Positions 36,826 to 64,000 of a stretch of DNA of 64,000 bases are shown here, in pieces. The notes under the pieces are model-generated. The model was given only the letters and a program-made list of their open reading frames with translations. It was not told the DNA's origin and did no database searches. Position numbers and translations under genes: made by a program. Every line of letters starts with the position of its first letter. Position 1 is the first letter of the stretch. The stretch comes from Minisyncoccota bacterium (GTDB lineage: Bacteria > Patescibacteriota > Minisyncoccia > Phycocordibacterales > JAQTLZ01), in contig JAQTLZ010000002.1 in assembly GCA_028714635.1 (NCBI GenBank), positions 9,362 through 73,361 of the forward strand. Reading direction: 5' to 3'.

Positions 36826-39800
36826 ATGTTCGATAGAAAAAAACAAATTCAAAAAGGAGAAGTGCTGGGACAGAAACAAAAAAATTTACTCCCGGCTTCT
36901 AAAGAGACGAGAAAAGTTTTCTCATTGATGACTATTCTATTAGTAATAGGAATAGGAATAATTTTCCCCTTAGGAGCAAGCGTCAAGGCAGACACAGTAC
37001 AAATAGGTGGGCATACGATAGAATTCAATTACAATTCAATCGGAGGTAGTTCCGCACCCTTCGATCCAAATGATCTTAATGGGCCTTATGTAGTAAACGG
37101 ACAAACGTATTTTGTCTACCAAGCTACTAAATACCGCATAACGGGCAATACAGCTGTACCAGTTGATACTGGAGACAGTACTTTTTCTCAGTCAGCCGCG
37201 CAACTTTTTGGAGCACAGATACCTTTTATAGGAAGCGGTACAGCCCAAACACTGACCCACACGGGTTGGATAAATGTTATTCAGGATGGTTTAAATGCAG
37301 AACTTGCAGCAACAAGGAAAAAATTAGCTGCCGACCAGGCAGCGGGCGATACGGTAGCCGTTAATGAAGACCAACAAAAAATAGCAGCCATAAATAGTGA
37401 CATAAAGGAAGCTGCGGGAACTGTAAACATGAACAGTGGCCAGGCCGCTCAAGCAACGGCAGATTCGAATCGGCTTATGGGTGATGTAAGCTGCACATGG
37501 AATAGTAAATTTAGTTTGGTTGCGTGTCTTAATATCGCAGCGCTCTGGGTGGGAAATCTGATCCTTAGCCTCGCCGCGCTCTTTCTCTTCATTGTAAGCA
37601 TTCTCTTTGACTACATAATCTCCGGTACAGTAGCCGGAATGGGAGGAATCATCCAGAGGGTAGGCACTATAGCAGTTGCTTGGAGAGCGGCTCGGGATAT
37701 CGCGAACGCATTTTTCATATTTATCCTTCTTTATCTCGCAATCGCTACAATTTTGGACCTTGGAGTAGAGACGAAAAAACAGGTGATACGAGTGATAGTG
37801 ATGGCGCTCCTTATCAATTTCAGTCTCTTCTTTACTAGTGTGATGATAGACGCCTCGAACCTCATCGCCACCGGTTTTTATAATGCCACACTCAAGATAG
37901 CGAAAGACACCGCTCCTCCGCCGAACGCAGGACTGACGTCAGGAATAATCGACCCAGGCTCGCGCACAGGAAGCATTTCATCTGTATTTTTAAATGCGAT
38001 GGCTCTTCAGGGAATTTATAATTACAATTCTCCGACTATTAAAAGCGGGTTAGTGGAAAGCGCCAACACAGCAGATCCGAGAAAAGAAAACGTAGGAATT
38101 CCAGACCGAATAAGCAATACCGCAGTCGCCGAAAGTAGTGGCAACAAGATTTCATTCAGCAGAATCCTCGTCACCACCATTTTCGGCACGATGGTAATGT
38201 TTACCACCGCTCTTGTATTGCTTGCTTCTATTTCACTCTTCGGAGCACGAGTGGCAACGCTTCTTGTTTGTATGGTTTTTTCTCCTATCGCATTTGCCCT
38301 TATGGCAGTTCCAGGAGATAAATACTCAGAAAAACTCTACTGGGGCAAACTGGTACCGCAACTGCTCTTTGCTCCCGTCTATATGCTATTCCTTTTTCTC
38401 ACCATACAAATTGTGAGGAGTCTCCCGCCAGGAAGTTTCTCTGCTTCAAACGATGCAAATCTCAGCAGTGAACTCGGCGCGATATTCGCAATCTTCTACA
38501 ATTATATAATCGTCAACACCCTCATTATGACCACTCTTGTCTCGGCAAATGAGATTGGAATCGAGGGAGCAAGTGCGGCAATGGAGTGGGTGCAAAAAGG
38601 GAAGGGCGCGCTCCAGAGCGTTGTGGGGAGAAATACAATCGGCTGGTGGGCACGAGGTCTTGATGAGAAATGGGCGAATACAAATGCTCCACGAGGATTT
38701 AACTGGCTTGTTGGAGGTCAAGGAATTGTCGGCTCCAAGATTCGAGGTTCGACTACCGGCTTTTTGAAAGATGCTAAATTCGGCGGAGAGAAAAGCGCTG
38801 AAGATGTTTACCACGAGGAACATGTTCTTAGGTCTGCTCAAGAGAGCAACAGAAAGAAAGACGCAGTGATCGCGGGATTAAGAAAGGGGGACAAAGACGC
38901 TGTGGAACAGGCTTGGGGCAAACTTTCCGGTTCAGAGAAGATAGAAATGCTTAAAACTAATAAGGGGCTCTTCAATCATCGCGATATGGAAATGATCGGT
39001 GAAGCAAGTACTGACCAAGATATAGAGTCAATTGATAAAAGCGACGATTTAACCCAGCAGGAAAAGGATGAATTGAAACACGGAAAATTCGACCGTCAAA
39101 TTGCTATTTCGAAATTATACAAAAATGAGCTGGATAAATACGAGGAAGCATTCTCGAACGGAGGCAGATATAACGTTGTGGACAAAAACGGAAAAGAGAC
39201 CGGAGAAGTCGTCGATTTCAGCGCGGTAAGAGGTGCGGCCAGAAATGAACTTTACGCCCAAAACATGTTAAGTATGAGAAAATGGGATAAGAAATTGGCG
39301 ACCGATATACAAAAGAGGAAGGGTCTCTCGATCAAACATATGCATCAAATCGCACCGGATCTCTTCACCGATAACAAAGACGGAAGAATTACTGAAAACA
39401 TCGACCATGGGCCGATTGAAGACGCGAGAAGGCTGGGATTCTTGAGTGTTGCAGCTGAAAGAAAATTGCGACTGGCAAAAGGAACCGCAGCTATGGACGC
39501 GACAGCTATGGCGTACGGAATTGATGTTTCGAAAAAAGACTGGAGAGAAAAAGGCATTGAAGAGAGAGGAAAACTCCTAGACGCTGTGGGCGAACACTAT
39601 GTCTATGGAGGTGAAGACGCGATGGGTGAATATTTGAGACTGCAGAGTGGTAGTTTAACCCAAGCAGAGAGAGACGAATACGCTAGGCTTCATCATGGGG
39701 ATCAAGATTATATGGCAGCCGGCGAGGAAAGATACAGGCGATGGATGAGCGGTAAAGGACCTCACGAATTCTGGCTGAACAGAGGCGCTGTCAGAAATAG

Positions 39801-40290
39801 CTCAATTCAGCGAAAGTATGCAGCGCAAGGTATTATCTCTGAAGGATTCCGAGCTGACGACGTGGATAAGGATGGTCTTATGGCGGAAAAGATGGCACGA
39901 TATACTGCGAATGCGGCCGGAAACATCACGGATGATTTTGAGCATAACGATGGACCAATCTCCGAAGCTGACGCTACCGCTATGGATTACTGGCTCAATA
40001 ACAGAGTTGGCAAAGAATGGAGAGACAATCGACTGGGACTCAAAGTGAAAAGGGATAGGGGCGGGGTATTTACAAGTGTGGACATTATGCATCCTGAAAC
40101 GATCGTGGAAAGGGCACAGATTGCATACAACTTAAATGGACCTGACGGCAATATCAGAGCAAGAAAGTATGTTACCGATGATATAAAATGGAGGGCACGA
40201 AGAACCACCGCTATGGAAGACGCCGCAGCAAGAGGAGTTCCATTTGTTCCCAACCCTGGAGATCCGAGACCTGATCCAAGAACCTATTAA
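36826..40290 (+). CDS. Giant polytopic membrane protein (1154 aa), VirB6/TrbL-like in architecture. N-terminal exported domain, about 8 TM helices in the central region, and a roughly 550-aa cytoplasmic C-terminal extension.
   Basis: Hydrophobicity pattern of the translation and its position next to a VirB4-like ATPase. Confidence 0.45.
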   Translation: MFDRKKQIQKGEVLGQKQKNLLPASKETRKVFSLMTILLVIGIGIIFPLGASVKADTVQIGGHTIEFNYNSIGGSSAPFDPNDLNGPYVVNGQTYFVYQATKYRITGNTAVPVDTGDSTFSQSAAQLFGAQIPFIGSGTAQTLTHTGWINVIQDGLNAELAATRKKLAADQAAGDTVAVNEDQQKIAAINSDIKEAAGTVNMNSGQAAQATADSNRLMGDVSCTWNSKFSLVACLNIAALWVGNLILSLAALFLFIVSILFDYIISGTVAGMGGIIQRVGTIAVAWRAARDIANAFFIFILLYLAIATILDLGVETKKQVIRVIVMALLINFSLFFTSVMIDASNLIATGFYNATLKIAKDTAPPPNAGLTSGIIDPGSRTGSISSVFLNAMALQGIYNYNSPTIKSGLVESANTADPRKENVGIPDRISNTAVAESSGNKISFSRILVTTIFGTMVMFTTALVLLASISLFGARVATLLVCMVFSPIAFALMAVPGDKYSEKLYWGKLVPQLLFAPVYMLFLFLTIQIVRSLPPGSFSASNDANLSSELGAIFAIFYNYIIVNTLIMTTLVSANEIGIEGASAAMEWVQKGKGALQSVVGRNTIGWWARGLDEKWANTNAPRGFNWLVGGQGIVGSKIRGSTTGFLKDAKFGGEKSAEDVYHEEHVLRSAQESNRKKDAVIAGLRKGDKDAVEQAWGKLSGSEKIEMLKTNKGLFNHRDMEMIGEASTDQDIESIDKSDDLTQQEKDELKHGKFDRQIAISKLYKNELDKYEEAFSNGGRYNVVDKNGKETGEVVDFSAVRGAARNELYAQNMLSMRKWDKKLATDIQKRKGLSIKHMHQIAPDLFTDNKDGRITENIDHGPIEDARRLGFLSVAAERKLRLAKGTAAMDATAMAYGIDVSKKDWREKGIEERGKLLDAVGEHYVYGGEDAMGEYLRLQSGSLTQAERDEYARLHHGDQDYMAAGEERYRRWMSGKGPHEFWLNRGAVRNSSIQRKYAAQGIISEGFRADDVDKDGLMAEKMARYTANAAGNITDDFEHNDGPISEADATAMDYWLNNRVGKEWRDNRLGLKVKRDRGGVFTSVDIMHPETIVERAQIAYNLNGPDGNIRARKYVTDDIKWRARRTTAMEDAAARGVPFVPNPGDPRPDPRTY

Positions 40291-41058: not shown

Positions 41059-41511
41059 ATGCAATTCCAAGTCCCTCAATTCATCGAAATAGAAGACAAA
41101 GTTTTCGGGCCTCTTACCGTCAAACAATTTCTCTATCTTGCCGGAGGAGCCGGGTTTTCGTATCTTCTATATGCTTTTCTGCCTTCTTACATATCTTATG
41201 CTCTCATGTTGCTTGTCGCTGGTTTTTCACTCGCTCTCGCTTTCTACAAAGTGAACGAAAAGCCTTTTATCCTTATTGTCGAAGCCGCTTTTAATTATCT
41301 TTTCAGCAAAAAACTCTACATCTGGAAAAGACAGGACAAAAAAATCGAAAAGAAGGAGGAAGTTGAAACCTCACAGCCGACACTTCGGGTTCCTAAACTC
41401 TCTGATAGCAAGCTAAGCGATCTCTCTTGGAGCCTTGATATAAACGAGAGGGAAAAGGGTACCATCTATTCAAAAGAGACAAAAACACTCGGAAGAAGAG
41501 AAGATCGCTGA
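41059..41511 (+). CDS. Small two-TM membrane protein, VirB3/PrgI/TcpE-like candidate
   Basis: VFGPLTVKQFLYLAGGAGFSYLLYAF...LMLLVAGFSLALAFY. It sits directly upstream of the VirB4-like genes, as VirB3/ConD homologs do. Confidence 0.4.
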   Translation: MQFQVPQFIEIEDKVFGPLTVKQFLYLAGGAGFSYLLYAFLPSYISYALMLLVAGFSLALAFYKVNEKPFILIVEAAFNYLFSKKLYIWKRQDKKIEKKEEVETSQPTLRVPKLSDSKLSDLSWSLDINEREKGTIYSKETKTLGRREDR

Positions 41512-41574
41512 TATTTAGCTGAAAAACAGATTTATCCGTTGTAACGAGTGACTTCGCCGTCTATAATGTAACCT

Positions 41575-42216
41575 ATGGCGTCTCAAACAAGCGAAGCAAC
41601 CCAAGCATTTGTACCAATAGAAGAAATTCGCGATGGAATCGTGGTGCTTAAAGATGGAGGAATGAGAACAATTCTTCTCGCCTCTTCGGTAAACTTTGCC
41701 CTCAAATCCTCTGATGAACAGGCCGGAATCATTATTCAATTTCAAAATTTTTTGAACTCTCTTGATTTTTCGGTGCAGATGTTTCTTCAATCACGAAAGT
41801 ACGATATTCGCCCATATATCGCGCTCTTGGAAGAAAGATACAAGGCCCAGACAGGGGACCTTATGAGAATTCAGACACGCGAATATATCGATTTCGTGAA
41901 AAGCTTCAGTGACAATGCCAACATTATGAAAAAAAGTTTTTTCATAATTGTCCCTTTCAATCCTTCCGTGTTGAATTCAAAAGGGGAGGGAATAATGAAA
42001 GTATTCAGGCGGGAGAAAAAAACAGAAGCAGAACTCTCAAAGAAAAGGGATTTTGAAGAAAACAGAACACAGCTCGAACAAAGAGTTGGTATTGTTTCGC
42101 AAGGGCTTGTTCGTTGCGGAGTCAAAACCATCGGACTTGGCACGGAGGAAATCGTCGAACTCTTCTACAAGATATTTAATCCAGGAGACACCGAAAAGCC
42201 GATTCATGTTGAATAA
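41575..42216 (+). CDS. VirB4 N-terminal-domain-like protein (213 aa). Possibly a split-off or duplicated N-domain of the following ATPase.
   Basis: The motif block (GIVVLKDGGMRTILLASSVNF...) is repeated at the N-terminus of the next gene (GVLELKDIIAPSALKITPRELNLGDKIVRTFFVISYP). Confidence 0.4.
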   Translation: MASQTSEATQAFVPIEEIRDGIVVLKDGGMRTILLASSVNFALKSSDEQAGIIIQFQNFLNSLDFSVQMFLQSRKYDIRPYIALLEERYKAQTGDLMRIQTREYIDFVKSFSDNANIMKKSFFIIVPFNPSVLNSKGEGIMKVFRREKKTEAELSKKRDFEENRTQLEQRVGIVSQGLVRCGVKTIGLGTEEIVELFYKIFNPGDTEKPIHVE

Positions 42217-42228
42217 TTTCAAAATAGT

Positions 42229-44052
42229 ATGGGACTTTTAAGCAACCTATTTGGAAAAAAAGAAAATACCGTGCCGAAAATTGCGCCTATTTTGCCGCAA
42301 GAGATTTATGAATCTGGAGTATTGGAACTTAAAGATATTATCGCTCCGTCCGCCCTTAAAATAACTCCGCGCGAACTGAATCTCGGAGACAAGATCGTTC
42401 GCACATTCTTCGTCATTTCCTATCCAAGATTTCTCTCTGACAGCTGGTTTTCTCCAATCATAAATCTCGATAAAGTTTTCGACATTTCAATATTCGTGCA
42501 CCCGATCGAGACTGCGAAAGTGTTGCGTACTTTCCAGAAAAAAGTTGCGGAGGTGGAAAGCCAAATATCCGGGAGACAGTCAAAAGGATTGGTGCGCGAC
42601 CCAGTGCTCGATACCGCCTATCAGGACCTTGAAGGGTTGCGGGACCGCCTCCAGCAGGCGCAGGAAAAACTTTTTGACGTCGGTCTTTATATTTCCGTTT
42701 ATGGTGAAACAAATGAGGAACTCGATAAGATAGAATCGGAGATCAAATCAATTCTCGAAGCAAAACTAGTGTATTTGAAACCGGCGCTTTTCCAGCAGGA
42801 ACAAGGCTTCAAGACCGTGCTTCCGGTAGGAGAAGATCTCTTGGAAGTGCACTCGAAATTAAATTCTTCTCCTCTTTCAAGCCTTTTTCCGTTTATCTCA
42901 TTCGACCTTTCATCCGACAAAGGAATTTTGTATGGAATAAACCGCCACAATTCAAGCCTTGTGCTTTTCGACCGATTTTCCCTTGAAAACTACAATTCAG
43001 TGACGTTTGCTAAGGCTGGTTCTGGAAAATCATACGCTTCCAAGCTTGAAATCCTTCGAACCCTTATGTTCGACGCGGATGTTTTGGTCATTGACCCGGA
43101 AAAAGAATATGAATATATGGCGGAAGCAACAGGCGGAAGATATTTCAACATTTCTCTTAATTCTGAACATCATATCAATCCGTTCGATCTGCCAGCACCT
43201 CGACCTGATGAATCAAAAGCAGACGTCTTGCGCTCGAATATTGTGAACTTGGTTGGGCTTTTCCGTCTTATGCTTGGAGGACTTTCTCCGGAAGAAGACG
43301 CTGTCATAGACCGAGCTATCACCGAAACCTACGCACTCAAAGACATCACTGCCGATTCTGATTTCTCAAACATCGAACCTCCGCTCCTATCCGACTTCGA
43401 ATTGGTTCTCGCGGGAATGGAAGGAGGGGAGTCATTGGCACAGCGACTTACCAAATTTACTAAAGGAACGTGGGCAGGGTTTATCAACAAGCCAACAAAC
43501 ATCGACATCAACAAAAAATTCGTGGTGTTTTCTCTTAGAGATATGGAAGATGAACTAAAGCCTGTGGCAATGTACATCGTCACTCACTATATCTGGAACG
43601 CTATTCGAAAAGAGCTGAAGAAACGCCTCTTGGTAATCGATGAAGCGTGGTGGATGATGAAATCCGAAGATACAGCATCATTCCTCCTTGGCCTCGCAAA
43701 ACGATGCCGAAAATATTATTTGGGACTTGCAACTATCACCCAGGACGTCGATGACTTCCTCCGCTCTCCTTATGGACTCCCGATTATCACCAACTCGTCG
43801 ATCCAAATCCTTCTCAAACAGTCCGCTTCTTCAATTGATATCCTCCAGAAAACATTCTCGCTTACTGACGAAGAAAAATATCTCCTCCTCGAATCTGATG
43901 TGGGAGAGGGAATTTTCTTTGCGGGAACAAAACATGTGGCCATAAAAATTATCGCCTCATACACTGAAGATCAAATCATCACCTCAAACCCTTCCCAGCT
44001 TCTTGCCATACAAAAAGCAAAAGAAGAGCTCGCAGGACTTGGACAGGGATAA
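42229..44052 (+). CDS. virB4: VirB4/TrbE/ConE-like type IV secretion ATPase
   Basis: Walker A FAKAGSGKSY, Walker B LLVIDEAWWMM, C-terminal ATPase core, about 600 aa. Confidence 0.75.
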   Translation: MGLLSNLFGKKENTVPKIAPILPQEIYESGVLELKDIIAPSALKITPRELNLGDKIVRTFFVISYPRFLSDSWFSPIINLDKVFDISIFVHPIETAKVLRTFQKKVAEVESQISGRQSKGLVRDPVLDTAYQDLEGLRDRLQQAQEKLFDVGLYISVYGETNEELDKIESEIKSILEAKLVYLKPALFQQEQGFKTVLPVGEDLLEVHSKLNSSPLSSLFPFISFDLSSDKGILYGINRHNSSLVLFDRFSLENYNSVTFAKAGSGKSYASKLEILRTLMFDADVLVIDPEKEYEYMAEATGGRYFNISLNSEHHINPFDLPAPRPDESKADVLRSNIVNLVGLFRLMLGGLSPEEDAVIDRAITETYALKDITADSDFSNIEPPLLSDFELVLAGMEGGESLAQRLTKFTKGTWAGFINKPTNIDINKKFVVFSLRDMEDELKPVAMYIVTHYIWNAIRKELKKRLLVIDEAWWMMKSEDTASFLLGLAKRCRKYYLGLATITQDVDDFLRSPYGLPIITNSSIQILLKQSASSIDILQKTFSLTDEEKYLLLESDVGEGIFFAGTKHVAIKIIASYTEDQIITSNPSQLLAIQKAKEELAGLGQG

Positions 44053-44081: not shown

Positions 44082-44972
44082 ATGCTGCGAAAATTTTTTA
44101 CTCTAGCGAAGGAAGTAAGGGAAATAAAACCAAGAATCACGCCGGGAGCGGCTGCGCTTTTGATTTTTTTCGCGCTTATTATTGATTTGGTGCAATTTTT
44201 GGTCAATTTTCTTGACGAAATCCTTTTTATAGGAGTTATTCTCAACTGGCTCATTGATATAGCTGTGATTTTCGGATTCTGGCTATGGTTTCGATTCAAA
44301 AGAGTAAAATTCGTTAAAATATCAGCCGAAGGGAAATCAAGTGCCACTGGACTTATCGCGTTCATTATAACAGTTATCATTAAACTTATTCCGGTACTCA
44401 ACGCGCTTCCAGCATGGACCGCAAACGTTATGATAAATATCGGCGTTTCTTGGGTTGAAGACCTAGCTGCGCAGGATAGAAGCGGGACGCTTGCAAAAAT
44501 GTTGCCTGGCGGCAAAAAAGCACTATCACAAGGGGCAAAAAAACAAGCATTGGAAGCGAGGAGAGATGATAGGCGAAACGGAAGAGAGGGGTACACAAGA
44601 GAGGGAATGGGAAGTGGAAGTAGAGAAGAAGAAAAAGAACAACAAGCGATGCTCCCAACCAACACCCTCGATCTTTCAAATCAATCGGGAATATCTAGCG
44701 GGGGACAGGAAAGAAGACCGGAAATTCCAAGAGATGAGCCGGCAAAGCGGGTCACAGAAGAGCCTCAACGAAGAGGAGATGCTTCTTCAGAAGCAGATAG
44801 AATATGGCAAGAAAGGGATCGGACCGGCGCTATCGCTCAAGCTGACGATATCTGGAAAAGAAGAGATGAGCGAACAGCACAAGAAGAAAAAATGCTCCAA
44901 GAGAAGATGGGTGGAATGGGGAATAGACTCGATAAAATATGGGAAGAAAGGGATCGGAAAAATGGCGTTTGA
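44082..44972 (+). CDS. Polytopic membrane protein (about 4 TM) with a disordered charged C-terminal tail carrying DRIWQERDR / DDIWKRRDER / DKIWEERDRK repeats
   Basis: Hydrophobic N-terminal half and repeats in the translation. Confidence 0.45.
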   Translation: MLRKFFTLAKEVREIKPRITPGAAALLIFFALIIDLVQFLVNFLDEILFIGVILNWLIDIAVIFGFWLWFRFKRVKFVKISAEGKSSATGLIAFIITVIIKLIPVLNALPAWTANVMINIGVSWVEDLAAQDRSGTLAKMLPGGKKALSQGAKKQALEARRDDRRNGREGYTREGMGSGSREEEKEQQAMLPTNTLDLSNQSGISSGGQERRPEIPRDEPAKRVTEEPQRRGDASSEADRIWQERDRTGAIAQADDIWKRRDERTAQEEKMLQEKMGGMGNRLDKIWEERDRKNGV

Positions 44973-46062
44973 AGCCAGAGCTGTTGATAAGGTATCTTTT
45001 GACTATGGTAAAATAACAGGATACATGAAAAGCGCTCTTATACAGAAAGCCGCTACTCTTTTTCTCTCTGGACTCATCCTTTTGTGTCTTGTGTCCTTAT
45101 CTCACTTGACCGCCTCTGCAGAAATTATCGCTCCCGAAAATTCAGTCTCTCTTTCAATACAGCCCCAAAATCCCGAGCCGAATTCAGAGGTAAGTGCCAC
45201 AATTGAAGGGTATCTTTTCGATCTGCAAAAATCAAAAATTTCTTGGTCTGTGAATGGGAATATCAAGAAAACAGGTATTGGAGGAACTACTTTTTCATTC
45301 ACAACAGGCAATGCAGGAAAAACAACGAACCTAAGCGTCGTTGTTGATGCCCCCGATGGCACGCACGTAGAAAAATTACTTTCCCTTCAGGCTGCAAATG
45401 TCGATCTGGCATGGGAAGCGACTTCCTATAGCCCCCCATTTTACAAAGGAAAATCACTTTTCCCTCCTCAAGGAACGGCCAAGGTCGTGGCACTCCCGGA
45501 CCTTACCGATGCAAGTGGCAACCTTATTCCAGCTGAAAAGCTTCTCTATAAATGGACAAAGGACAGAGAAATACTGGGAGACGACTCCGGGTACGGGAAA
45601 AATATTTACACATTTACAGGAGATCTTTTCTCTCGGCCAGTTACCATAAAAGTAGAAGCGAGCACACTTGTAGGAAATCAAACAGCAGAAAAGAGCATCG
45701 TTATTTCTCCCGCAACTTTGCAGGTTGTTTTATACGAAGATGATCCGCTTTTGGGAATTACATACGAAAAATCACTTCCGGCGAGTTTCCCTCTTATTAA
45801 TCCAGAGATAAAAATGGTTGGTGTGCCATACTTTTTCAATGCAAATGATCCACTTACCTTTTCTTGGAGTATGAATGGGAGTCCTTTCACAGACGGACAA
45901 AGCGCGGACGGAAAAAGTGCGACACTCCGGCAAAACAGCCAAACAGGCACGGCAGTTATTTCTCTTGGGGTGACAAACAGCGCTTCATTTCTTCAATCTG
46001 CGGAAACGAAAAGCTCCATATTTTTGCCGACTATAACAAAGACAAATGCAACCTCAATTTAA
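44962..46062 (+). CDS. Secreted protein with signal peptide or TM anchor. Start chosen at MAFEARAV, overlapping the previous stop.
   Basis: The ORF-track ORF 44491-46062 trimmed to the first in-frame ATG after the overlap. Hydrophobic segment LFLSGLILLCLVSL. Confidence 0.45.
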   Translation: MAFEARAVDKVSFDYGKITGYMKSALIQKAATLFLSGLILLCLVSLSHLTASAEIIAPENSVSLSIQPQNPEPNSEVSATIEGYLFDLQKSKISWSVNGNIKKTGIGGTTFSFTTGNAGKTTNLSVVVDAPDGTHVEKLLSLQAANVDLAWEATSYSPPFYKGKSLFPPQGTAKVVALPDLTDASGNLIPAEKLLYKWTKDREILGDDSGYGKNIYTFTGDLFSRPVTIKVEASTLVGNQTAEKSIVISPATLQVVLYEDDPLLGITYEKSLPASFPLINPEIKMVGVPYFFNANDPLTFSWSMNGSPFTDGQSADGKSATLRQNSQTGTAVISLGVTNSASFLQSAETKSSIFLPTITKTNATSI

Positions 46063-46148: not shown

Positions 46149-47015
46149 ATGAAAACAGCAACAAAAATCTACGTATGCATCCTTTGTCTTGTTCTGTGTT
46201 TTGGCGCTACCCATAAAGCACTTGCTTTCTTTCAAGAGCAATCCTATAAATCCCTTGCGCCAATCGAGGGAGTAAATTCCCCGGGCGATGCTGTAGTGGG
46301 AGGCGTAAATCTTGCCACGTACCTCGGAGACATTTTCAAACTGGGCATCGGGCTTTGCGGAATATTCGCAGTGCTTATGATAGTCGTCGGAGGGCTTGAA
46401 TATGTGATGACCGATAAAATCGCAAGCAAGGAAGATGCGAAGACAAGGATAACTAATGCCATCATAGGTCTTCTTCTGGCTCTTTCTTCCTATGTCATCC
46501 TCTACACAATAAATCCCGCTCTGGTAAGCCTCGATTTTTTGAATTCTACTGGCGGAGGCAATGTTCCGCAAACACTTTCGGTAAATAATAGTGCCCCTGA
46601 TCAGGTGGCGACAAATCCGGTAGCACCAGCAAGCAAACCTGGGGATACTGTGACCACAAAACCAGAAACACCAGCTGCACCTAAACCACCAGCCAAGCCA
46701 AAAGATCCTGAACGAACGAGTGTATTCTGTTTTTACACAGGCAAACAGGTTCGAGGATTTGTCTCATGGATACCGTTAGACTACTACCTAAGCCCCAATA
46801 ATCCTACGAAAGAATATCGTGTGAATAATGACATTTATTATTTTCAGAATCCGACAAAAACATGCACCCCTCGTTTACCGAAAAGCCAAGCGAAAAGCCA
46901 ATGCGAAACAACAAGGACGGCGGCTATCGATGCACTTCCGTTCAATTGGGCATTCGTCCAAGCGAGCCAAGATGTTACAGCTTGTTACGACGCAACAAGT
47001 GAGTTTTACAACTAA
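46149..47015 (+). CDS. VirB2/TrbC pilin-like protein: signal peptide, two hydrophobic helices separated by a short charged loop, then a Cys-containing C-terminal extension
   Basis: MKTATKIYVCILCLVLCFGATHKALA; LGIGLCGIFAVLMIVVGGLEY; AIIGLLLALSSYVILYTI. Confidence 0.4.
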   Translation: MKTATKIYVCILCLVLCFGATHKALAFFQEQSYKSLAPIEGVNSPGDAVVGGVNLATYLGDIFKLGIGLCGIFAVLMIVVGGLEYVMTDKIASKEDAKTRITNAIIGLLLALSSYVILYTINPALVSLDFLNSTGGGNVPQTLSVNNSAPDQVATNPVAPASKPGDTVTTKPETPAAPKPPAKPKDPERTSVFCFYTGKQVRGFVSWIPLDYYLSPNNPTKEYRVNNDIYYFQNPTKTCTPRLPKSQAKSQCETTRTAAIDALPFNWAFVQASQDVTACYDATSEFYN

Positions 47016-48859: not shown

Positions 48860-49615
48860 TTATTTTTTCTTAATTAAAAGCTCTTGGACAATGCTGAAAA
48901 GATTGTTGGTAATCCAGTATAAAGTGACCGCTCCGGAAAACCCATAGGCGAAAATCCCGATCATCGCTGGCAACATATACTTCATCTGGAGGCTCATGCC
49001 CTTGGAAAACTCATCCTGAAATGACGCTTTTTTATTTGGATCACTTGGAACTTTAGAAGGAGTAGTGGCAGAAAGTGTGTACTTCGCCTGGAAAAATTGG
49101 CTCGCTGCAGCAAGAAGCGCCAAAACGATATTTTTTGTATGAGTAATATCCAAAAACCCTAGAAAATGGAGATTAATTACACTCGGAGTATGTATGAAAG
49201 AATAAAGAAGGTTCAGATCTATCATCGCCTTGGAAAGATCTCCTCGAAACACCTGGTAGAGAGCGATAACGATCGGCAATTGGATAAACATAAAAAGAAT
49301 CCCCGAGAAAGGATTTATTTTGTTCTCCTTGTAGAGGGCGAGAGTTCTTTTCGCCTGCTCGTCTTTATTGTCTTTAAAATCGATCTTAATCTGCTCCATC
49401 TGAGGACCAAGCTCCTTCATTTTTCTCTGACTTTCAAGAGATTTCTTAGAAAGGGGATAGAGAACAAACCGGATCAATATGGTAAACAGGATAATAGCAG
49501 CGCCGACATCGCCATGCGGAATAAAACCAATTAAAAATACCAATCCATTGTAGAGAGGTCTGTAAAAAACGCCATTGTAGGCGACGGAAAAAAGATGGCC
49601 AATAAATGAAAACAT
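48860..49615 (-). CDS. yidC: YidC/Oxa1 family membrane protein insertase (short form)
   Basis: Five TM helices. Conserved KINPFSGILFMFIQLPIVIALYQVF region. Confidence 0.85.
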   Translation of the reverse strand: MFSFIGHLFSVAYNGVFYRPLYNGLVFLIGFIPHGDVGAAIILFTILIRFVLYPLSKKSLESQRKMKELGPQMEQIKIDFKDNKDEQAKRTLALYKENKINPFSGILFMFIQLPIVIALYQVFRGDLSKAMIDLNLLYSFIHTPSVINLHFLGFLDITHTKNIVLALLAAASQFFQAKYTLSATTPSKVPSDPNKKASFQDEFSKGMSLQMKYMLPAMIGIFAYGFSGAVTLYWITNNLFSIVQELLIKKK

Positions 49616-49683
49616 AGCGCCATTCTACAGAAAAAGCTTTGTGAATACAAATTAAGCGGTTATAACGGACTTTTCGGGAAATG

Positions 49684-50025
49684 TTACGGGAGAATCCGGG
49701 ACTTTTTTAAGAGAGAGAGGGCTTCCTCCTTCAATGCACTGAAGGTTAGCTCCGCACCGCCACTTTTGTAGAAAAAAATGCCGTTCGAATCAGGTCTCGT
49801 CTCCTTAAGTACCTCCTGTATGATGCTTAAAAGTCTTCGTTTCAGGAGATTTCTGGCCACCGCTCTCTTGGCAACTTTCTTAGAAACTGACACTGCAAAA
49901 CGGCTCTTTATTTGTAGAGAAACAGCTAACACTCGTAGGGTGAGGTGAGGGGAGTGGTACCACATACCCCTCTTAAGGACATCGGCAAACATAACTCTCG
50001 AAATTCTTTGTTTTCGAGCTAGCAT
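49684..50025 (-). CDS. rnpA: Ribonuclease P protein component
   Basis: Basic protein with the RNR-like motif KKVAKRAVARNLLKRRL. Confidence 0.85.
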   Translation of the reverse strand: MLARKQRISRVMFADVLKRGMWYHSPHLTLRVLAVSLQIKSRFAVSVSKKVAKRAVARNLLKRRLLSIIQEVLKETRPDSNGIFFYKSGGAELTFSALKEEALSLLKKSRILP

Positions 50026-50119
50026 ACGGGGAATAGCGTAAAGCGGATAGCGGATAGCGTAAGGGAATACTCCATAAATTTGAATTTTATTTCTAGCCGC
50101 TTTACGCTAAACGCTGTCC

Positions 50120-50254
50120 TTAGACCGAGAGTCTTTTACGACCCTTCTGCATCCTTCTCTTAAGAGTATTTTTACCTCCTTTTGTCTTCTTTCGAGCTAA
50201 AAAGCCGTGCGTTCGAGCTCTTTTCTTCTTTTTCGGCTGGTATGTGATTGACAT
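50120..50254 (-). CDS. rpmH: 50S ribosomal protein L34. 44 aa ([44 protein letters not shown]), hand-translated; below the ORF-track length cutoff.
   Basis: Near-universal L34 sequence; canonical position upstream of rnpA. Confidence 0.85.
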
Positions 50255-50446
50255 AGTTCCATCACTCTATCACAAAAAAACGATTTCTGGCAAATAAGAT
50301 GGTATTTTTCACTATCCACATTCTTTCCACAGTCTTTCAACATTTTTAATGACTGTGGACAAGCTTTACTTTTTTCCATTCGGTATATAATGATACTGTT
50401 TTTCTTTTTCTATCTTTTCACATCTTAAAAGCATTTTTTTCACTCT
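50255..50446. promoter_or_regulatory. dnaA upstream region with DnaA boxes TATCCACA (50313-50320), TTTCCACAG (50324-50332) and TGTGGACAA (50355-50363)
   Basis: Matches to the TTATCCACA consensus read from the sequence. Confidence 0.6.
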
Positions 50447-51793
50447 ATGGACAACAAAAAACTATGGGGGTCTGTCTTAGCTGAACTGGAATTATCCCTT
50501 TCCAAGGCAAATTTTCATACTTGGTTCAAAGATACCGCTGTTACTAAGCAAGAAGAGGGAATGGTGTACCTCAATGTCCCGAATGCTTTTGTAAAAGATT
50601 GGCTGTATAACAAATATCATAGAGATATCCTGAAAGCTCTCCGAACATACGGAGAAAATGTCCGATCTTTAGAATATGTTGTTTCAAAAGATGAGGGAAG
50701 GAAGAAAGAGGGAGAGGCAACTCGGCAAGCTACGCCAATTCAAAGCAACGAGCTTCCTTTGAATGACTACTACATCAACAAAGAAGACAATTTAAATCCA
50801 AAATATACTTTTGACGCTTTTGTTGTCGGCCCTTTCAATGATCTTGCATTCGCCGCATCGCAAGCAGTAATAAAAAAACCCGGGACCGCTTACAATCCTC
50901 TCTTTGTGTACGGAAATACCGGCCACGGAAAAACACATCTTATCCAAGCCATCGGAAACTCTTTGAAAGGCGGAAACCCGGGAAGAAAAATTTTCTACGT
51001 CACTTCCGAAACATTCGCGGTGGATTACATCACTTCAGTTCAAAATAATAAGCCAAACCAATTCAAAGAAAAATATCGAAAATACGACGTGTTAATCATG
51101 GATGATATCCAGTTCCTTTCCAAAAAAACCCAGACGCAGGAAGAGTTATTTCACCTTTTCAATGCTTTGTACGAGAACAATAAGCAGATCGTATTTTCAT
51201 CCGACAAACATCCGAACTACATTCCAGATCTCGAGGAGCGCCTTAAATCGCGCTTCAGCGCAGGAATGATCGTAGAAATCCCTCCGCCTGACTACGAATC
51301 CCGAGTAGCAATTTTGAAAGCGAAAGCAAAGCAAAATAATTTTACCCTGTCCGATGAAGCAATCGATTATCTTTCTTCTTCCATTGAAGGGAACATCCGA
51401 GAGCTCGAAGGAGTTTTAAACTCAATTATTTGCCAGACACAGCTTAAGAACAGCGAACTCGGGCTCGCTGATATTAAAAATCTCATCAAAAATACTTCGA
51501 AACCGAAGAAAAACATTTCTCCGAAAGATATCATTAAAATTATTTCTGACTTCTACAATATTGAAGAGGCGAGTATCTACGAAAAGACTAGAAAGAAGGA
51601 GATCGTAAAGCCTCGACAGCTCATCATGTACATCCTCCGGGAAGATTTCAATGTGTCGTATCCATCAATCGGCCAAAAACTTGGCGGGAGAGATCACACA
51701 ACCGTCATGCACTCTTGTGAAAAAATTAAAAACGACTTAAAAGTCGACCAGCTCCTCGTGCAAGAGTTGAGCAGAATCAGAGCTCTTATTTAG
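50447..51793 (+). CDS. dnaA: Chromosomal replication initiator DnaA
   Basis: AAA+ Walker A GNTGHGKTHL, sensor motifs, C-terminal DNA-binding domain. Confidence 0.95.
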   Translation: MDNKKLWGSVLAELELSLSKANFHTWFKDTAVTKQEEGMVYLNVPNAFVKDWLYNKYHRDILKALRTYGENVRSLEYVVSKDEGRKKEGEATRQATPIQSNELPLNDYYINKEDNLNPKYTFDAFVVGPFNDLAFAASQAVIKKPGTAYNPLFVYGNTGHGKTHLIQAIGNSLKGGNPGRKIFYVTSETFAVDYITSVQNNKPNQFKEKYRKYDVLIMDDIQFLSKKTQTQEELFHLFNALYENNKQIVFSSDKHPNYIPDLEERLKSRFSAGMIVEIPPPDYESRVAILKAKAKQNNFTLSDEAIDYLSSSIEGNIRELEGVLNSIICQTQLKNSELGLADIKNLIKNTSKPKKNISPKDIIKIISDFYNIEEASIYEKTRKKEIVKPRQLIMYILREDFNVSYPSIGQKLGGRDHTTVMHSCEKIKNDLKVDQLLVQELSRIRALI

Positions 51794-52079
51794 CGAGAGT
51801 TTGATTGAGGGAGATGATTTGTGGATAATGTGTGGAAAGAGTGTGGAATTTTCGTGGATTTTATGTGAGCTCATTGTAGAAAAACGGCTCTAAAGAAGGC
51901 TAAAAAGTGGATAGCCCCGAAGAACCGTTTTTCGAATCTACAACCTAAAAAACATATACACAGAAAGGGGAAAGAGATAAGCTTAAGAAAGGTTGTTACA
52001 GAGCGGTTAAAAATGATATCCACATATACACAAGGTTAATAGTAGTAATAGGTATTTATATAAAGAATAAAAACAAACA
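51794..52079. promoter_or_regulatory. oriC candidate. Cluster of DnaA boxes: TGTGGATAA (51820-51828), TGTGGAAAG (51831-51839), TGTGGAATT (51842-51850), CGTGGATTT (51853-51861), AGTGGATAG (51905-51913), TATCCACA (52025-52032), plus an AT-rich stretch before dnaN.
   Basis: Box matches, and the canonical dnaA-dnaN intergenic location. Confidence 0.7.
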
Positions 52080-53180
52080 ATGAAGATAGAGTGTACAAAA
52101 GAAAAATTATTCGGAGCTGTATCAAAAGCAGAAAAAATTTCAGGCAAGCATCTTACCCTTCCTGTTTTAAGTTGTATTCTTCTTGAAGCGAAGAAAAATG
52201 CTTTATTTGTACGAGCGACAAATTTAGATGTGGGAGTTGAAATATCTTTTCCAGTGAAAGTAGATGAAGAAGGAATTGTCGCAGTTTCTGGTTCGGTACT
52301 TTCTGGTTTCCTTTCAAATCTTTATACTGATAAAAATATAAAATTAGAAACAACTAAAGGAAATCTTTCCCTTACCGGCGGGAAAACCTCTATCACCATA
52401 AAATCTCTTCCTCATGAAGATTTTCCAACTATCCCCAAGATACAAGATGGAACAGTTTTTCACCTCGAGTCCAATGACCTCTTAAAAGGACTTACCTCTG
52501 TTTGGTACGCTTCCGGAACTTCAAGTATGAAGCCAGAACTTTCAAGCGTCTATATGTATGCGGAGAACGATTCTCTTGTTTTTGTTGCTACTGACTCATT
52601 CCGCCTTGCAGAAAAGAGAATAAAAACCAAAAAACCGAAAGATTTTTCGCATGTTCTCATCCCATTTAAAAATGTTTTGGAAATTGTGAGAATTTTTGAG
52701 GAAGTGAAGGGAGAAATTACTGTGGAAGCAAATAAAAACCAGATTTCGTTCTCTGCAGATGGGATTTATCTTACGTCTCGAGTTGTAGACGGAGTATTTC
52801 CTGACTATAAACAGATCATTCCAAAAAAATTCGGAACCGAGGTTATTCTTTTGAAACAAGACTTGGTGAACACCCTGAAAATTTCAAATATATTTTCAGA
52901 TGCTTTCCGGCAAGTCCACATGAAAGCTGATCCAAAGAAAGAGATTTTTGAAGTGCAGACAAAAAATGCCGACGTTGGAGAAAGCATAAGCTCTCCCGAA
53001 GCTGCTCTTACCGGAGAACCTATCGAAATTAATTTTAATTTCAAATACATTATGGATTGTTTCCAGTCCATTGATGCAGACAGTGTTTCTCTCGAGTTTA
53101 GCGCGCTTAATCGGCCCATGGTGATGCGAGGCGTGGCTGACAGGTCATTTACCTATCTTGTGATGCCAATGAATAAATAA
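52080..53180 (+). CDS. dnaN: DNA polymerase III beta sliding clamp
   Basis: Three-domain clamp, about 366 aa, immediately after dnaA. Confidence 0.9.
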   Translation: MKIECTKEKLFGAVSKAEKISGKHLTLPVLSCILLEAKKNALFVRATNLDVGVEISFPVKVDEEGIVAVSGSVLSGFLSNLYTDKNIKLETTKGNLSLTGGKTSITIKSLPHEDFPTIPKIQDGTVFHLESNDLLKGLTSVWYASGTSSMKPELSSVYMYAENDSLVFVATDSFRLAEKRIKTKKPKDFSHVLIPFKNVLEIVRIFEEVKGEITVEANKNQISFSADGIYLTSRVVDGVFPDYKQIIPKKFGTEVILLKQDLVNTLKISNIFSDAFRQVHMKADPKKEIFEVQTKNADVGESISSPEAALTGEPIEINFNFKYIMDCFQSIDADSVSLEFSALNRPMVMRGVADRSFTYLVMPMNK

Positions 53181-61974: not shown

Positions 61975-62388
61975 ATGGCTCACGGTGGTGACAGTCACAA
62001 ATCCTCCGGAGGCGGAGGCGGAGGAGGCGGAGGGAAAGGAACTCCGGGTATGGGACTTTTCCTTCTTCCAATTTTCCTTTCCATTGTCGGTATCGGCAAG
62101 GGAATTGGCTTCGTGAAGGGAGCCTTTCACCGAGCTCCCATTGTCCAGACCGAAATTCAGGAAGAAGAAGGGGAAGTGGAGGTTGTCACCGAGGGTGAGG
62201 ACACTGCTCTACCAACCGAGAATGAGCAAGGTGTCTTAACTGAGGAGAATACCTACGTAGCTCCCCCTGTTCAGAAGAACCCCACCATCTGGATGGTTCC
62301 CAAAATTCCAAAAGTAAGGGCAGATAATGTTGATGAAGTGAACCGGCTCTCTATTCAGAAGATGAGAGCGCTTCGCAACACAAAATAG
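61975..62388 (+). CDS. Small membrane protein with a Gly run (GGGGGGGGGKG) and an acidic C-terminal half
   Basis: ORF with one TM helix, followed by a terminator. Confidence 0.4.
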   Translation: MAHGGDSHKSSGGGGGGGGGKGTPGMGLFLLPIFLSIVGIGKGIGFVKGAFHRAPIVQTEIQEEEGEVEVVTEGEDTALPTENEQGVLTEENTYVAPPVQKNPTIWMVPKIPKVRADNVDEVNRLSIQKMRALRNTK

Positions 62389-62393
62389 GCCCA

Positions 62394-62420
62394 AAAGGAG
62401 CGTTTCGCTCCTTTTTTACT
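62394..62420 (+). terminator. Rho-independent terminator (GGAGCG-tttc-GCTCC plus T6)
   Basis: Hairpin and U-run. Confidence 0.6.
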
Positions 62421-62457
62421 GCTCCGAAGTTCCATTTTTAATAATTAAGCGAGGCTA

Positions 62458-62485
62458 TTGACTTTTTCATACGAAGTGCTATAAT
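62458..62485 (+). promoter_or_regulatory. Promoter: TTGACT, 16-nt spacer, TATAAT, at the start of the high-GC island
   Basis: Near-consensus hexamers. Confidence 0.55.
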
Positions 62486-62569
62486 GGTAACGGGAAAACA
62501 GATCGAGGAATCCTTGGAGGCAATTTCGCCACGAGGGCAACTCTTCGAACATTTACAGGGAGGTGTACG

Positions 62570-63505: not shown

Positions 63506-63555
63506 AAAGCCGGCCGGTAGTACAGTACAAGTTGAACAAAGAGGAATAAAGAATG

Positions 63556-63582
63556 GGAGCACAATCTGGTGCTCCTTTTTTC
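63556..63582 (+). terminator. Rho-independent terminator (GGAGCAC-aatctg-GTGCTCC plus T6)
   Basis: Hairpin and U-run. Confidence 0.55.
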
Positions 63583-63764
63583 GTATCTTTCGTCACTTTC
63601 GTCTCCTACCCCCGTCTTCTTATGCGGGCACTAGAGGCACTTGACAAAGCAGTGCTTTGTGTGCTATCATTATAGCCAGAAGGACCTTGTGATGTAGAGT
63701 AGAAGTGGAAGTTCAACCGTCAATCATGTCGCTCTGAAGCGGCAAACTTTGGGAGGATTTGAGG

Positions 63765-64000
63765 ATGAAAAGCATCGTTTTCGTACTGTTCGTGTTCGTG
63801 CTCTCGGCCAGTGTGGTCGCGGGCGAAGAAGGTCAGGTTCCCACGACCGTTAATGTTTCGGTCACGGGTGACCCCCTGAAGAACCAGGAGTTGGTGAATG
63901 CGGAGGCAACGAAACGCCTCGCTGAAACTGACGAAGCGCTGGTCAAACAGCGTATCAACGCGCAGAACTGGCGCGCGGCTTACCAAGGGAAGGGGAAGAA
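63765..64000 (+). CDS. Exported protein, 3'-truncated by the window end. Paralog of the C-terminal domain of the 62570-63505 gene; has a signal peptide.
   Basis: GGAGG RBS. MKSIVFVLFVFVLSASVVA signal peptide. GDPLKNQELVN..TDEALVKQRINAQNWRA aligns with GDPAKNQAAVN..TDEALVKANRNASRWRA. Confidence 0.5.
   Translation, partial: MKSIVFVLFVFVLSASVVAGEEGQVPTTVNVSVTGDPLKNQELVNAEATKRLAETDEALVKQRINAQNWRAAYQGKGK

What the first reader, a model, noticed from the sequence alone, without database searches (positions are those of the whole stretch)
41575..44052. VirB4-like ATPase preceded by a separate gene encoding a second copy of its N-terminal motif block
The 213-aa protein (I..DGIVVLKDGGMRTILLASSVNFALKSSDEQ...) and the first about 100 aa of the 607-aa ATPase (GVLELKDIIAPSALKITPRELNLGDKIVRTFFVISYPRFLSD...) share the same pattern. 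That pattern is found once at the N-terminus of canonical VirB4/TraC proteins. This suggests either a gene fission followed by duplication, or a dedicated accessory subunit that mimics the membrane-proximal domain.
Basis: seen in the sequence. Interest (0 to 1): 0.55.

Follow-up and report, generated by a model that had tools for sequence, protein, structure and literature searches.

The report
Two-gene (split) VirB4 secretion ATPase
The two genes are not a motor protein plus a spare copy of its front end: together they make up one ordinary type IV secretion ATPase (VirB4) cut into two consecutive pieces, an arrangement already described for this bacterial group.

Summary
Both ORFs are real: 41575-42216 (213 aa) and 42229-44052 (607 aa). 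The 607-aa protein is a VirB4-type ATPase, and the 213-aa protein is related to VirB4 N-termini. It is not a second copy. Full-length VirB4 models and real single-chain VirB4 proteins place the 213-aa family on roughly the first 175-215 residues. They place the 607-aa family on the residues that follow (for example 39-214 and 228-773 of an 818-aa Lacticaseibacillus VirB4; 3-214 and 226-794 of a 797-aa Colwellbacteria VirB4). The two pieces show no similarity to each other beyond chance (BLASTP E=3.2; hhalign P=0.06-0.14; 2 of 30 shuffled controls score higher). The split is kept in 79 of 80 related Patescibacteria loci, in all three relative frames, so the in-frame TAA here is coincidence, not an error or readthrough. 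The same PrgI, N-piece, ATPase order occurs on Firmicutes plasmids, including staphylococcal TrsD/TrsE. A 2025 paper already reports TrsD homologues, remotely similar to the VirB4 N-terminus, next to virB4 in about 1,700 Patescibacteria genomes. Verdict: a split VirB4, already known, low interest.

The parts
41575..42216 (+). TrsD-like protein (213 aa). It corresponds to the first ~175-215 residues of the N-terminal domain of a single-chain VirB4. It is soluble, with no TM segment.
   Evidence: ORF. NCBIfam maps residues 10-125 to positions 2-119 of the CD1110 VirB4 model, and residues 4-126 to positions 99-233 of VirB4_plasma; TrsD/TraD NF041427 scores E 1e-3. hhalign of the family profile hits residues 39-214 of an 818-aa fused VirB4 (P 9e-6) and residues 33-216 of S. 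aureus TrsD (P 1.4e-4). The AF2 model matches only TrwK/VirB4 in the PDB. About 8000 standalone homologues of ~212 aa exist.
42214..42228 (+). Junction: TAA stop of the first gene (42214-42216) plus a 12-nt spacer (42217-42228). The downstream ATG at 42229 is in the same frame.
   Evidence: Sequence and translation. In 79 related loci the two genes lie in relative frames 0/+1/+2 in 18/35/26 cases. The stop codons used are TAA, TAG and TGA. Gaps are mostly -4 to +30 nt, with eight ATGA overlaps.
42229..44052 (+). VirB4 ATPase core (607 aa): the second half of the N-terminal domain (about residues 1-228) plus the RecA-like C-terminal domain (about 229-586).
   Evidence: PF19044 at 3e-26 and PF12846. 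CD1110 model positions 185-733, 379 bits against a cutoff of 325; TraC-F model positions 253-721; VirB4_CagE positions 304-725. PDB 4AG5 at 3e-41 over residues 229-586; TrwK 330-735 aligned to residues 155-552.
43009..43032 (+). Walker A (AKAGSGKS, residues 261-268 of the 607-aa protein).
   Evidence: Read from the translation. G264, G266, K267 and S268 are invariant in 35 orthologues.
43627..43644 (+). Walker B (LLVIDE, residues 467-472).
   Evidence: Read from the translation. D471 and E472 are invariant. The motif aligns to the Walker B region of 4AG5.
41059..41511 (+). PrgI family (VirB3-like) small membrane protein, encoded immediately upstream.
   Evidence: PF12666 at E 5.6e-10. Present upstream in 78 of 80 related loci and in the Firmicutes and Actinomycetota plasmid loci.
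36826..40290 (+). A 1154-aa protein with several long hydrophobic stretches in its translation, a candidate VirB6 analogue (not verified).
   Evidence: No Pfam or NCBIfam hit. Conserved position in 66 of 80 loci. The VirB6 role is inferred from position only.
46149..47015 (+). T4SS pilin-like protein.
   Evidence: PF18895 T4SS_pilin at E 7.4e-7. Conserved downstream in 66 of 80 loci.
41539..41567 (+). Promoter-like site (TTGTAA-17-TATAAT) ending 7 nt before the ATG of the 213-aa gene.
   Evidence: 10 of 12 matches. Promoter-like sites in the region are not more frequent than in shuffles, so this is only a lead.

Best explanation
The two genes encode one VirB4 ATPase in two polypeptides. VirB4 is the energising ATPase of a chromosomal, monoderm-type (MPF-FATA-like) type IV secretion system, here in a Paceibacteria (Patescibacteria/CPR) genome. 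The 213-aa TrsD-like protein is the first ~175-215 residues of the VirB4 N-terminal domain. The 607-aa protein is the rest of that domain plus the Walker A/B ATPase domain. This colinear complementarity, and the conservation of the split, are shown here. The following steps are inferred. The two chains are made from adjacent, probably translationally coupled genes. They reassemble non-covalently into a normal VirB4 N-terminal domain. In the R388 structure that domain is what VirB3 wraps around and what mediates VirB4 dimerisation. Here it would dock on the adjacent PrgI/VirB3-like membrane protein and power assembly or transport by the T4SS.
For: Complementary mapping on full-length models. 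The 213-aa protein maps to CD1110 positions 2-119 and weakly to VirB4 PRK13853 positions 11-180. The 607-aa protein maps to CD1110 185-733, TraC-F 253-721 and VirB4_CagE 304-725, and TrwK 330-735 aligns to residues 155-552. Each gives an offset of about 171-196 residues.

Complementary mapping on real single-chain proteins. In the L. paracasei VirB4 (818 aa) the N-family covers 39-214 (P 9e-6) and the ATPase family covers 228-773 (P 2e-40). In the Candidatus Colwellbacteria VirB4 (797 aa, seen on 3 MAG contigs) the N-family covers 3-214 (1.6e-60) and the ATPase family covers 226-794 (3e-252).

Length and fold. 213+607 = 820 aa, against 785-823 aa for fused VirB4. The N-piece model matches only TrwK/VirB4 in the PDB.

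Conservation. The split is kept in 79 of 80 Patescibacteria loci in all three frames, with short gaps or ATGA overlaps. The synteny g795, VirB6-like, PrgI, N-piece, ATPase, g350, pilin, g422 is conserved. The same PrgI, N-piece, ATPase order occurs on Geobacillus, Clostridium, Brevibacillus and Miltoncostaea plasmids, and as TrsD-TrsE in S. aureus.

Literature. PMC12102498 reports TrsD homologues (remote homology to the VirB4 N-terminus) in 2,221 Patescibacteria assemblies, 1,664 of them next to virB4, and one essential in Ca. Southlakia epibionticum. PMC9259494 describes the roles of the VirB4 N-terminal domain.
Against: Physical association of the two chains was not tested. No complex prediction tool was available, and the AF2 model of the 607-aa protein was poor (pLDDT 40.6). 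Similarity to staphylococcal TrsD itself is weak: NF041427 scores 18.8 bits against a cutoff of 200, and the HMM of the narrower 77-sequence family is not significant against TrsD. It is seen only with a broader profile (hhalign P 1.4e-4). The direction of the event (fission, or retention of an older two-gene state) is inferred from the ubiquity of single-chain VirB4, not from a phylogeny.
Confidence: 0.87

Rival explanations
1. The small gene is a duplicated second copy of the ATPase's own N-terminal motif block, or an accessory subunit that mimics that block.
For: Both proteins begin with a loosely similar strand-rich stretch. A greedy hhalign run (mact 0.05) can thread them colinearly, 2-207 against 8-217. 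The order of secondary-structure elements in the 213-aa model resembles that of residues 56-185 of the 607-aa model, which is low-confidence.
Against: There is no significant similarity: BLASTP E 3.2; hhalign Prob 0.4-0.9%, P 0.064-0.14; 2 of 30 shuffled controls score higher. The N-family profile does not hit TrsE or any ATPase half (P 0.2). The two pieces map to consecutive, non-overlapping parts of single-chain VirB4. The ATPase is short by just the length of the small protein.
Confidence: 0.04
2. An artefact or a decaying gene. On this reading a single VirB4 gene is interrupted by a sequencing error, a nonsense mutation (pseudogene), or a programmed readthrough of the in-frame TAA.
For: The two ORFs are in the same frame, separated by one TAA and four sense codons. 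A fused 797-aa version exists in Colwellbacteria.
Against: The identical 213-aa and 607-aa proteins are each on record from two contigs. 79 of 80 related loci have the same two genes, with relative frames 0/+1/+2 in 18/35/26 cases, all three stop codons, ATGA overlaps, and in four loci a whole extra gene in between. The N-terminus of the ATPase (MGIF..LFGKKE) and the C-terminus of the small protein (FNPGDTEKPI) are themselves conserved. Thousands of standalone ~212-aa homologues exist.
Confidence: 0.02
3. An ancient internal repeat. On this reading the VirB4 N-terminal domain is itself a very old tandem duplication of one alpha/beta unit. The split falls at the repeat boundary, so the reader saw a real but very old resemblance that is present in all VirB4 proteins.
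For: The order of elements is the same in both halves: strand, helix, strand, helix, helix, strand, helix, strand. In the 213-aa model these are E30-36, H46-62, E68-75, H79-91, H95-114, E118-128, H149-180, E185-187. In the 607-aa model they are E56-62, E83-92, H95-117, H125-146, E149-159, H162-178, E183-185. The best hhalign local alignment (63-126 against 80-157) is in that register.
Against: The profile similarity is within chance (P 0.064; 2 of 30 shuffles higher). The second model has pLDDT below 50 over most of the region. Such an element order is common among alpha/beta domains. No passage returned by the text searches of the R388 structure paper for 'NTD' and 'N-terminal domain' mentions a repeat.
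Confidence: 0.07

Closest known systems
TrsD-TrsE of staphylococcal conjugative plasmids pGO1/pSK41 (and TraD-TraE of pIP501): MPF-FATA pGO1 subclass
   Same: A ~210-230-aa protein is encoded directly upstream of a short (607-670 aa) VirB4 ATPase (S. aureus locus L085: TrsD 227 aa, TrsE 670 aa). The Patescibacteria N-piece profile aligns end to end with TrsD (8-202 against 33-216, P 1.4e-4), and the ATPase profile aligns with TrsE (P 6e-23). PMC12102498 calls the Patescibacteria proteins TrsD homologues.
   Different: Sequence similarity to TrsD is remote: 18.8 bits against the NCBIfam cutoff of 200. The system here is chromosomal and close to dnaA. It lies in a gene set that includes a pilin-like gene, and the Pfam scans of the neighbouring genes found no coupling-protein domain; relaxase domains were not looked for specifically. 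It is not a plasmid conjugation operon.
Patescibacteria (CPR) chromosomal T4SS described in PMC12102498 (Microb Genom 2025)
   Same: The organism group, the components (VirB4, TrsD, PrgI/VirB3, VirB6-like, VirB2-like pilin), the gene neighbourhood and the location near the origin all match. The window's proteins are 100% identical to Candidatus Pacebacteria MAG proteins MDD5068152/MDD5068153.
   Different: Nothing substantive differs. That paper describes TrsD as remotely homologous to the VirB4 N-terminus. The passages read here do not state that the neighbouring VirB4 lacks that segment. The complementarity is shown here.
Single-chain VirB4/TraC ATPases: CD1110 family of Firmicutes, TrwK of R388 (PDB 7O41/8RTD), 797-aa Colwellbacteria VirB4
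   Same: The same domain content in the same order, with the same total length (820 aa against 785-823 aa). The Walker A/B ATPase domain is present, and a PrgI/VirB3 gene lies upstream.
   Different: Here the chain is cut after about residue 215 of the N-terminal domain, giving two polypeptides.
PrgI, N-piece, ATPase loci on large Firmicutes/Actinomycetota plasmids (Geobacillus pGspE55-1, C. botulinum pCBG, C. perfringens pJFP838A, Brevibacillus, Miltoncostaea)
   Same: The same split and gene order. The N-pieces score E 1e-15 to 1e-28 and the ATPases E 1e-50 to 1e-87 against the Patescibacteria family HMMs. NCBI names the C. botulinum N-piece 'TraC family protein'.
   Different: The N-pieces of the four Bacillota plasmids whose sequences were printed are longer (257-318 aa) and begin with a hydrophobic segment. 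The three Bacillales/C. perfringens ones also have a ~90-aa C-terminal extension. The 213-aa protein has neither.

Membership tests
VirB4/TraC family T4SS ATPase | P-loop (RecA-like) C-terminal domain with Walker A and Walker B motifs, homologous to solved VirB4 C-terminal domains | tested here: met
   607-aa protein: PF19044 at 3e-26; 4AG5 at 3.3e-41 over residues 229-586; GSGKS and LLVIDE are invariant in orthologues.
VirB4/TraC family T4SS ATPase | Score above a curated whole-protein cutoff of a VirB4 model | tested here: met
   NF045971 (VirB4-like, CD1110 family) scores 379 bits against a cutoff of 325 for the 607-aa protein alone. The other VirB4 models (TIGR00929, TIGR02746, NF045975) are matched but fall below their cutoffs.
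VirB4/TraC family T4SS ATPase | Complete N-terminal domain of ~400 residues on the same polypeptide as the ATPase domain | tested here: not met
   The 607-aa protein starts about 171-196 positions into every full-length model. The missing part is supplied by the separate 213-aa protein. The pair, not either chain alone, meets the domain content.
VirB4/TraC family T4SS ATPase | Genetic association with other T4SS components (VirB3/PrgI, VirB6, pilin) | tested here: met
   PrgI (PF12666) is immediately upstream and T4SS_pilin (PF18895) is downstream. The order is conserved in most of 80 loci. VirB6 identity of the 1154-aa protein was not verified.
TrsD/TraD family (MPF-FATA, pGO1 subclass) | Small (~200-230 aa) protein encoded directly upstream of a short VirB4 (TrsE-type) | tested here: met
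   213 aa, 12 nt upstream of the 607-aa VirB4. Compare TrsD (227 aa) and TrsE (670 aa) in locus L085.
TrsD/TraD family (MPF-FATA, pGO1 subclass) | Sequence match to a TrsD family model | tested here: inconclusive
   NCBIfam NF041427 gives E 1.1e-3 and 18.8 bits, far below its cutoff of 200. The narrow family HMM against S. aureus TrsD is not significant. A broader profile gives hhalign P 1.4e-4 over 173 columns. The CONJScan TrsD profile used in PMC12102498 was not available here.
TrsD/TraD family (MPF-FATA, pGO1 subclass) | Remote homology to the N-terminal portion of VirB4 | tested here: met
   NCBIfam VirB4_plasma at 2.3e-8 and CD1110 at 8.7e-5. hhalign to residues 39-214 of a fused VirB4 at P 9e-6. 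Foldseek hits to TrwK only.
   BLASTP E 3.2. hhalign P 0.14 and 0.064. 2 of 30 shuffled controls score higher. Structure-to-structure comparison was not possible with these tools.

The most novel reading that the evidence does not exclude
The VirB4 N-terminal domain may be an ancient tandem duplication of one alpha/beta unit. The TrsD/VirB4 split would then fall exactly at the repeat boundary. That could let the first repeat act as a separable subunit whose stoichiometry differs from that of the ATPase, for example bound only to the 'central' VirB4 copies that contact VirB3/PrgI.
Probability: 0.07. Interest if true: 0.45.

Novelty: already known. Interest (0 to 1): 0.12.

Why it matters
It matters little as a discovery. 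TrsD-like proteins next to VirB4 are already catalogued in thousands of Patescibacteria genomes, and the homologue in Ca. Southlakia epibionticum is reported as essential for that epibiont's growth (PMC12102498). The useful outcome is a cleaner reading for annotation. The 'hypothetical protein' at 41575-42216 should be named as the N-terminal piece of a split VirB4 (TrsD-like). The 'DUF87 protein' at 42229-44052 should be named as the VirB4 core. Neither should be flagged as a pseudogene despite the in-frame stop. The explicit demonstration that the two chains are complementary, not redundant, gives TrsD a testable role. It would be the part of the VirB4 N-terminal domain that in R388 contacts VirB3 and forms the dimer interface.

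Tried and rejected
1. Direct BLASTP of the two proteins found nothing significant.
2. Profile-profile comparison was run twice, with narrow and with broader alignments, and with local, greedy and global modes. None was significant. Reversed and block-shuffled controls show the best score is within chance.
3. Pfam scans of the 213-aa protein at E up to 10 gave no relevant family. The precomputed PF26593 tag on all homologues is not in the local Pfam copy, so its name could not be checked.
4. phmmer of the 213-aa protein against PDB sequences gave only chance hits. The relation to TrwK appeared only by fold search.
5. AF2 of the 607-aa protein failed (pLDDT 40.6), probably because all available homologues are over 82% identical. 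Its model was therefore not used for fold search, and its secondary structure is treated only as a hint.
6. Fold search does not report the aligned residue ranges. I could not show directly which half of the TrwK N-terminal domain the 213-aa model superposes on.
7. Guglielmini 2014 (PMC4027160), the review PMC12857230 and the pELF paper (PMC13492992) were searched for TrsD or a split VirB4. Their main texts contain nothing on this.
8. Readthrough and pseudogene readings were considered and rejected on comparative grounds.
Full report
**What is in the sequence**

On the + strand there are two ORFs, 41575-42216 (213 aa) and 42229-44052 (607 aa). They are in the same reading frame. One TAA (42214-42216) and four sense codons separate them before the ATG. 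Upstream lie a 1154-aa protein with several hydrophobic stretches (36826-40290), a 248-aa proline-rich protein, and a 150-aa PrgI-family (VirB3-like) protein (PF12666, 5.6e-10). Downstream lies a T4SS pilin-like protein (PF18895, 7.4e-7). yidC, dnaA and dnaN follow at 48.9-53.2 kb. Both proteins are 100% identical to proteins of a Candidatus Pacebacteria (Patescibacteria) MAG.

**Identity of the two proteins**

The 607-aa protein is a VirB4-type ATPase:
- PF19044 scores 3e-26.
- The NCBIfam CD1110-family VirB4 model scores 379 bits against a cutoff of 325.
- The solved VirB4 C-terminal domain 4AG5 aligns at 3e-41 over residues 229-586.
- Walker A (GSGKS, 264-268) and Walker B (LLVIDE, 467-472) are invariant in orthologues.

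The 213-aa protein has no Pfam hit in the local library. It does hit the N-terminal ends of full-length VirB4 models: VirB4_plasma positions 99-233 at 2.3e-8, CD1110 positions 2-119 at 8.7e-5, and weakly the TrsD/TraD family at 1.1e-3. Its AF2 model (pLDDT 74) finds only R388 TrwK/VirB4 chains in the PDB (14 hits, E 1e-4 to 1e-2, prob 0.99-1.0, TM about 0.46). The next-best hit has prob about 0.2.

**Is the small protein a second copy of the ATPase's N-terminus? No**

There are three lines of evidence.

1. The two show no similarity beyond chance.
   - hhalign of family profiles gives Prob 0.4%, E 0.14.
   - With more diverse profiles (102 and about 88 sequences, Neff about 5) it gives Prob 0.9%, P 0.064.
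   - 2 of 30 block-shuffled controls beat the real score.

2. The ATPase is short at its N-terminus by just the size of the small protein. All full-length models begin matching it 171-196 positions in: CD1110 at 185, TraC-F at 253 for residue 82, VirB4_CagE at 304 for residue 130, and TrwK at 330 for residue 155.

3. In real single-chain VirB4 proteins the two families map to consecutive, non-overlapping segments.
   - In an 818-aa Lacticaseibacillus paracasei VirB4 the N-family covers 39-214 and the ATPase family covers 228-773.
   - In a 797-aa Candidatus Colwellbacteria VirB4, seen on three MAG contigs, the N-family covers 3-214 (1.6e-60) and the ATPase family covers 226-794 (3e-252).

The pattern is therefore not 'found once' in canonical VirB4. 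213+607 = 820 aa equals the length of a normal VirB4 (785-823 aa).

**Is the split real?**

A scan of one genome per species returned at least 598 matching places, and 80 loci were kept. In 79 of them a ~600-aa VirB4 gene follows the ~212-aa gene (the 80th is cut off by the contig end). The relative frames are 0/+1/+2 in 18/35/26 loci, and all three stop codons are used. Gaps are mostly -4 to +30 nt, including eight ATGA overlaps. The in-frame TAA in this window is therefore one of three equally ordinary arrangements. It is not a sequencing error, a pseudogene or a readthrough site. The gene order g795, VirB6-like, PrgI, N-piece, ATPase, g350, pilin, g422 is conserved. A search of 1.8 billion cluster representatives found 3,195 clusters of N-piece homologues. 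Of the best 150, 149 are standalone proteins and one is fused.

**The same arrangement outside Patescibacteria**

tblastn against plasmids found the order PrgI, N-piece (257-337 aa), ATPase (620-661 aa) on large plasmids of Geobacillus, Clostridium botulinum, C. perfringens, Brevibacillus and Miltoncostaea. In C. botulinum the N-piece is annotated 'TraC family protein'. A staphylococcal pSK41/pGO1-type plasmid has TrsD (227 aa) followed by TrsE (670 aa). The broader Patescibacteria N-piece profile aligns end to end with TrsD (P 1.4e-4), and the ATPase profile aligns with TrsE (P 6e-23).

**Literature**

[quoted passage not shown] It counts 2,272 homologues in 2,221 assemblies, 1,664 of them next to virB4. 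The homologue in Ca. Southlakia epibionticum is listed as essential. The paper also notes that these T4SS often lie near the replication origin. The feature is therefore already described. What the passages I read do not spell out is that the neighbouring VirB4 lacks that portion. In other words, TrsD plus VirB4 is a split VirB4, not a VirB4 with an extra domain copy. The coordinate mapping above shows this.

**How it most likely works**

Shown: the two chains together hold the full VirB4 domain content, and they are always encoded side by side after PrgI/VirB3.

From the R388 structure (PMC9259494): the VirB4 N-terminal domain (residues 15-400) is what VirB3 wraps around. It alone forms the interface between central and outer VirB4 subunits.

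Inferred: the TrsD-like chain and the first ~228 residues of the ATPase chain reassemble into that domain. It docks on PrgI at the membrane. The C-terminal domain hydrolyses ATP to drive assembly or transport. The tight spacing suggests coupled translation and 1:1 stoichiometry.

Association of the chains was not tested. No complex predictor was available, and AF2 of the 607-aa protein failed (pLDDT 40.6) because all available homologues are over 82% identical.

**Residual novel reading**

The order of secondary-structure elements in the 213-aa model resembles that of residues 56-185 of the (poor) 607-aa model. The best, non-significant hhalign alignment is in that register. An ancient internal duplication of the VirB4 N-terminal domain, with the split at the repeat boundary, is thus not excluded. 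It has no statistical support here. I give it about 7%.

**Verdict**

- The feature is an already-known kind, the TrsD-like protein plus VirB4 of the Patescibacteria T4SS.
- Interest is low.

Noticed in passing
L006:6628-7048, L037:6628-7091, L066:6628-7077, L079:4315-4756: In four related Patescibacteria loci a 114-134-aa gene of family PF05635 sits exactly between the TrsD-like gene and the VirB4 gene. PF05635 is the 23S rRNA-intervening-sequence protein, a bAvd-like four-helix bundle (E 1e-26 to 1e-38). The four proteins differ widely in sequence. A fifth locus (L008) has a 496-nt gap with no ORF of 60 aa or more. Why this junction attracts such genes is unexplained.
   Followed up: partly
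window 48860-53180: yidC (- strand), dnaA and dnaN lie 0.5-4 kb downstream of the T4SS cluster (about 34.4-48.3 kb). The cluster is therefore next to the probable replication origin, as PMC12102498 reports for Patescibacteria T4SS.
   Followed up: partly
window 41539-41567: One of the two best promoter-like sites in the cluster (TTGTAA-17-TATAAT, 10 of 12) ends 7 nt before the ATG of the 213-aa gene. This hints at a leaderless or very short-leader transcript starting inside the operon. Promoter-like sites overall are not enriched over shuffles.
   Followed up: no
P0336 (Candidatus Colwellbacteria, 797 aa; members P0391, P0392): A single-chain VirB4 exists within the same bacterial group, with the TrsD-like part fused to the ATPase part. 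It is seen on three MAG contigs. It is either a re-fusion or a retained ancestral state, and its linker is about 25 residues shorter than a readthrough product of the window's gene pair would have.
   Followed up: partly
L081:4875-5831, L083:4887-5825, L087:3375-4373, L088:3366-4367; L091:1062-4289: The Firmicutes megaplasmid N-pieces whose sequences were printed (L081, L082, L083) begin with a hydrophobic segment, and the 312-333-aa ones have a ~90-100-aa C-terminal extension; the 213-aa protein lacks both. On an archaeal Salinibaculum plasmid the N-piece match lies at the C-terminal end of a 1075-aa protein, followed by an 843-aa DUF87 ATPase. In the Aneurinibacillus locus L088 the gene after the N-piece is only 321 aa.
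   Followed up: no
window 41059-44052 and 80 related loci: Conservation is very uneven within the operon. The ATPase half has a median of 81% identity to the window. The TrsD-like half has 62%, PrgI 56%, and the flanking membrane, pilin and unknown proteins 28-38%.
   Followed up: partly
window 44082-44972 and 44491-46062: A 296-aa ORF with an acidic and arginine-rich tail directly follows virB4 and overlaps a longer ORF in another frame. It is found in only 4 of 80 related loci, whereas the ORF after it (about 45010-46062) is found in 73 of 80. Gene boundaries here were not resolved.
   Followed up: no
window 62001-64000: GC content rises to 0.546, against about 0.43 elsewhere. No Rfam family other than four tRNAs reaches threshold anywhere in the window, so this is not rRNA. 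The cause was not examined.
   Followed up: no
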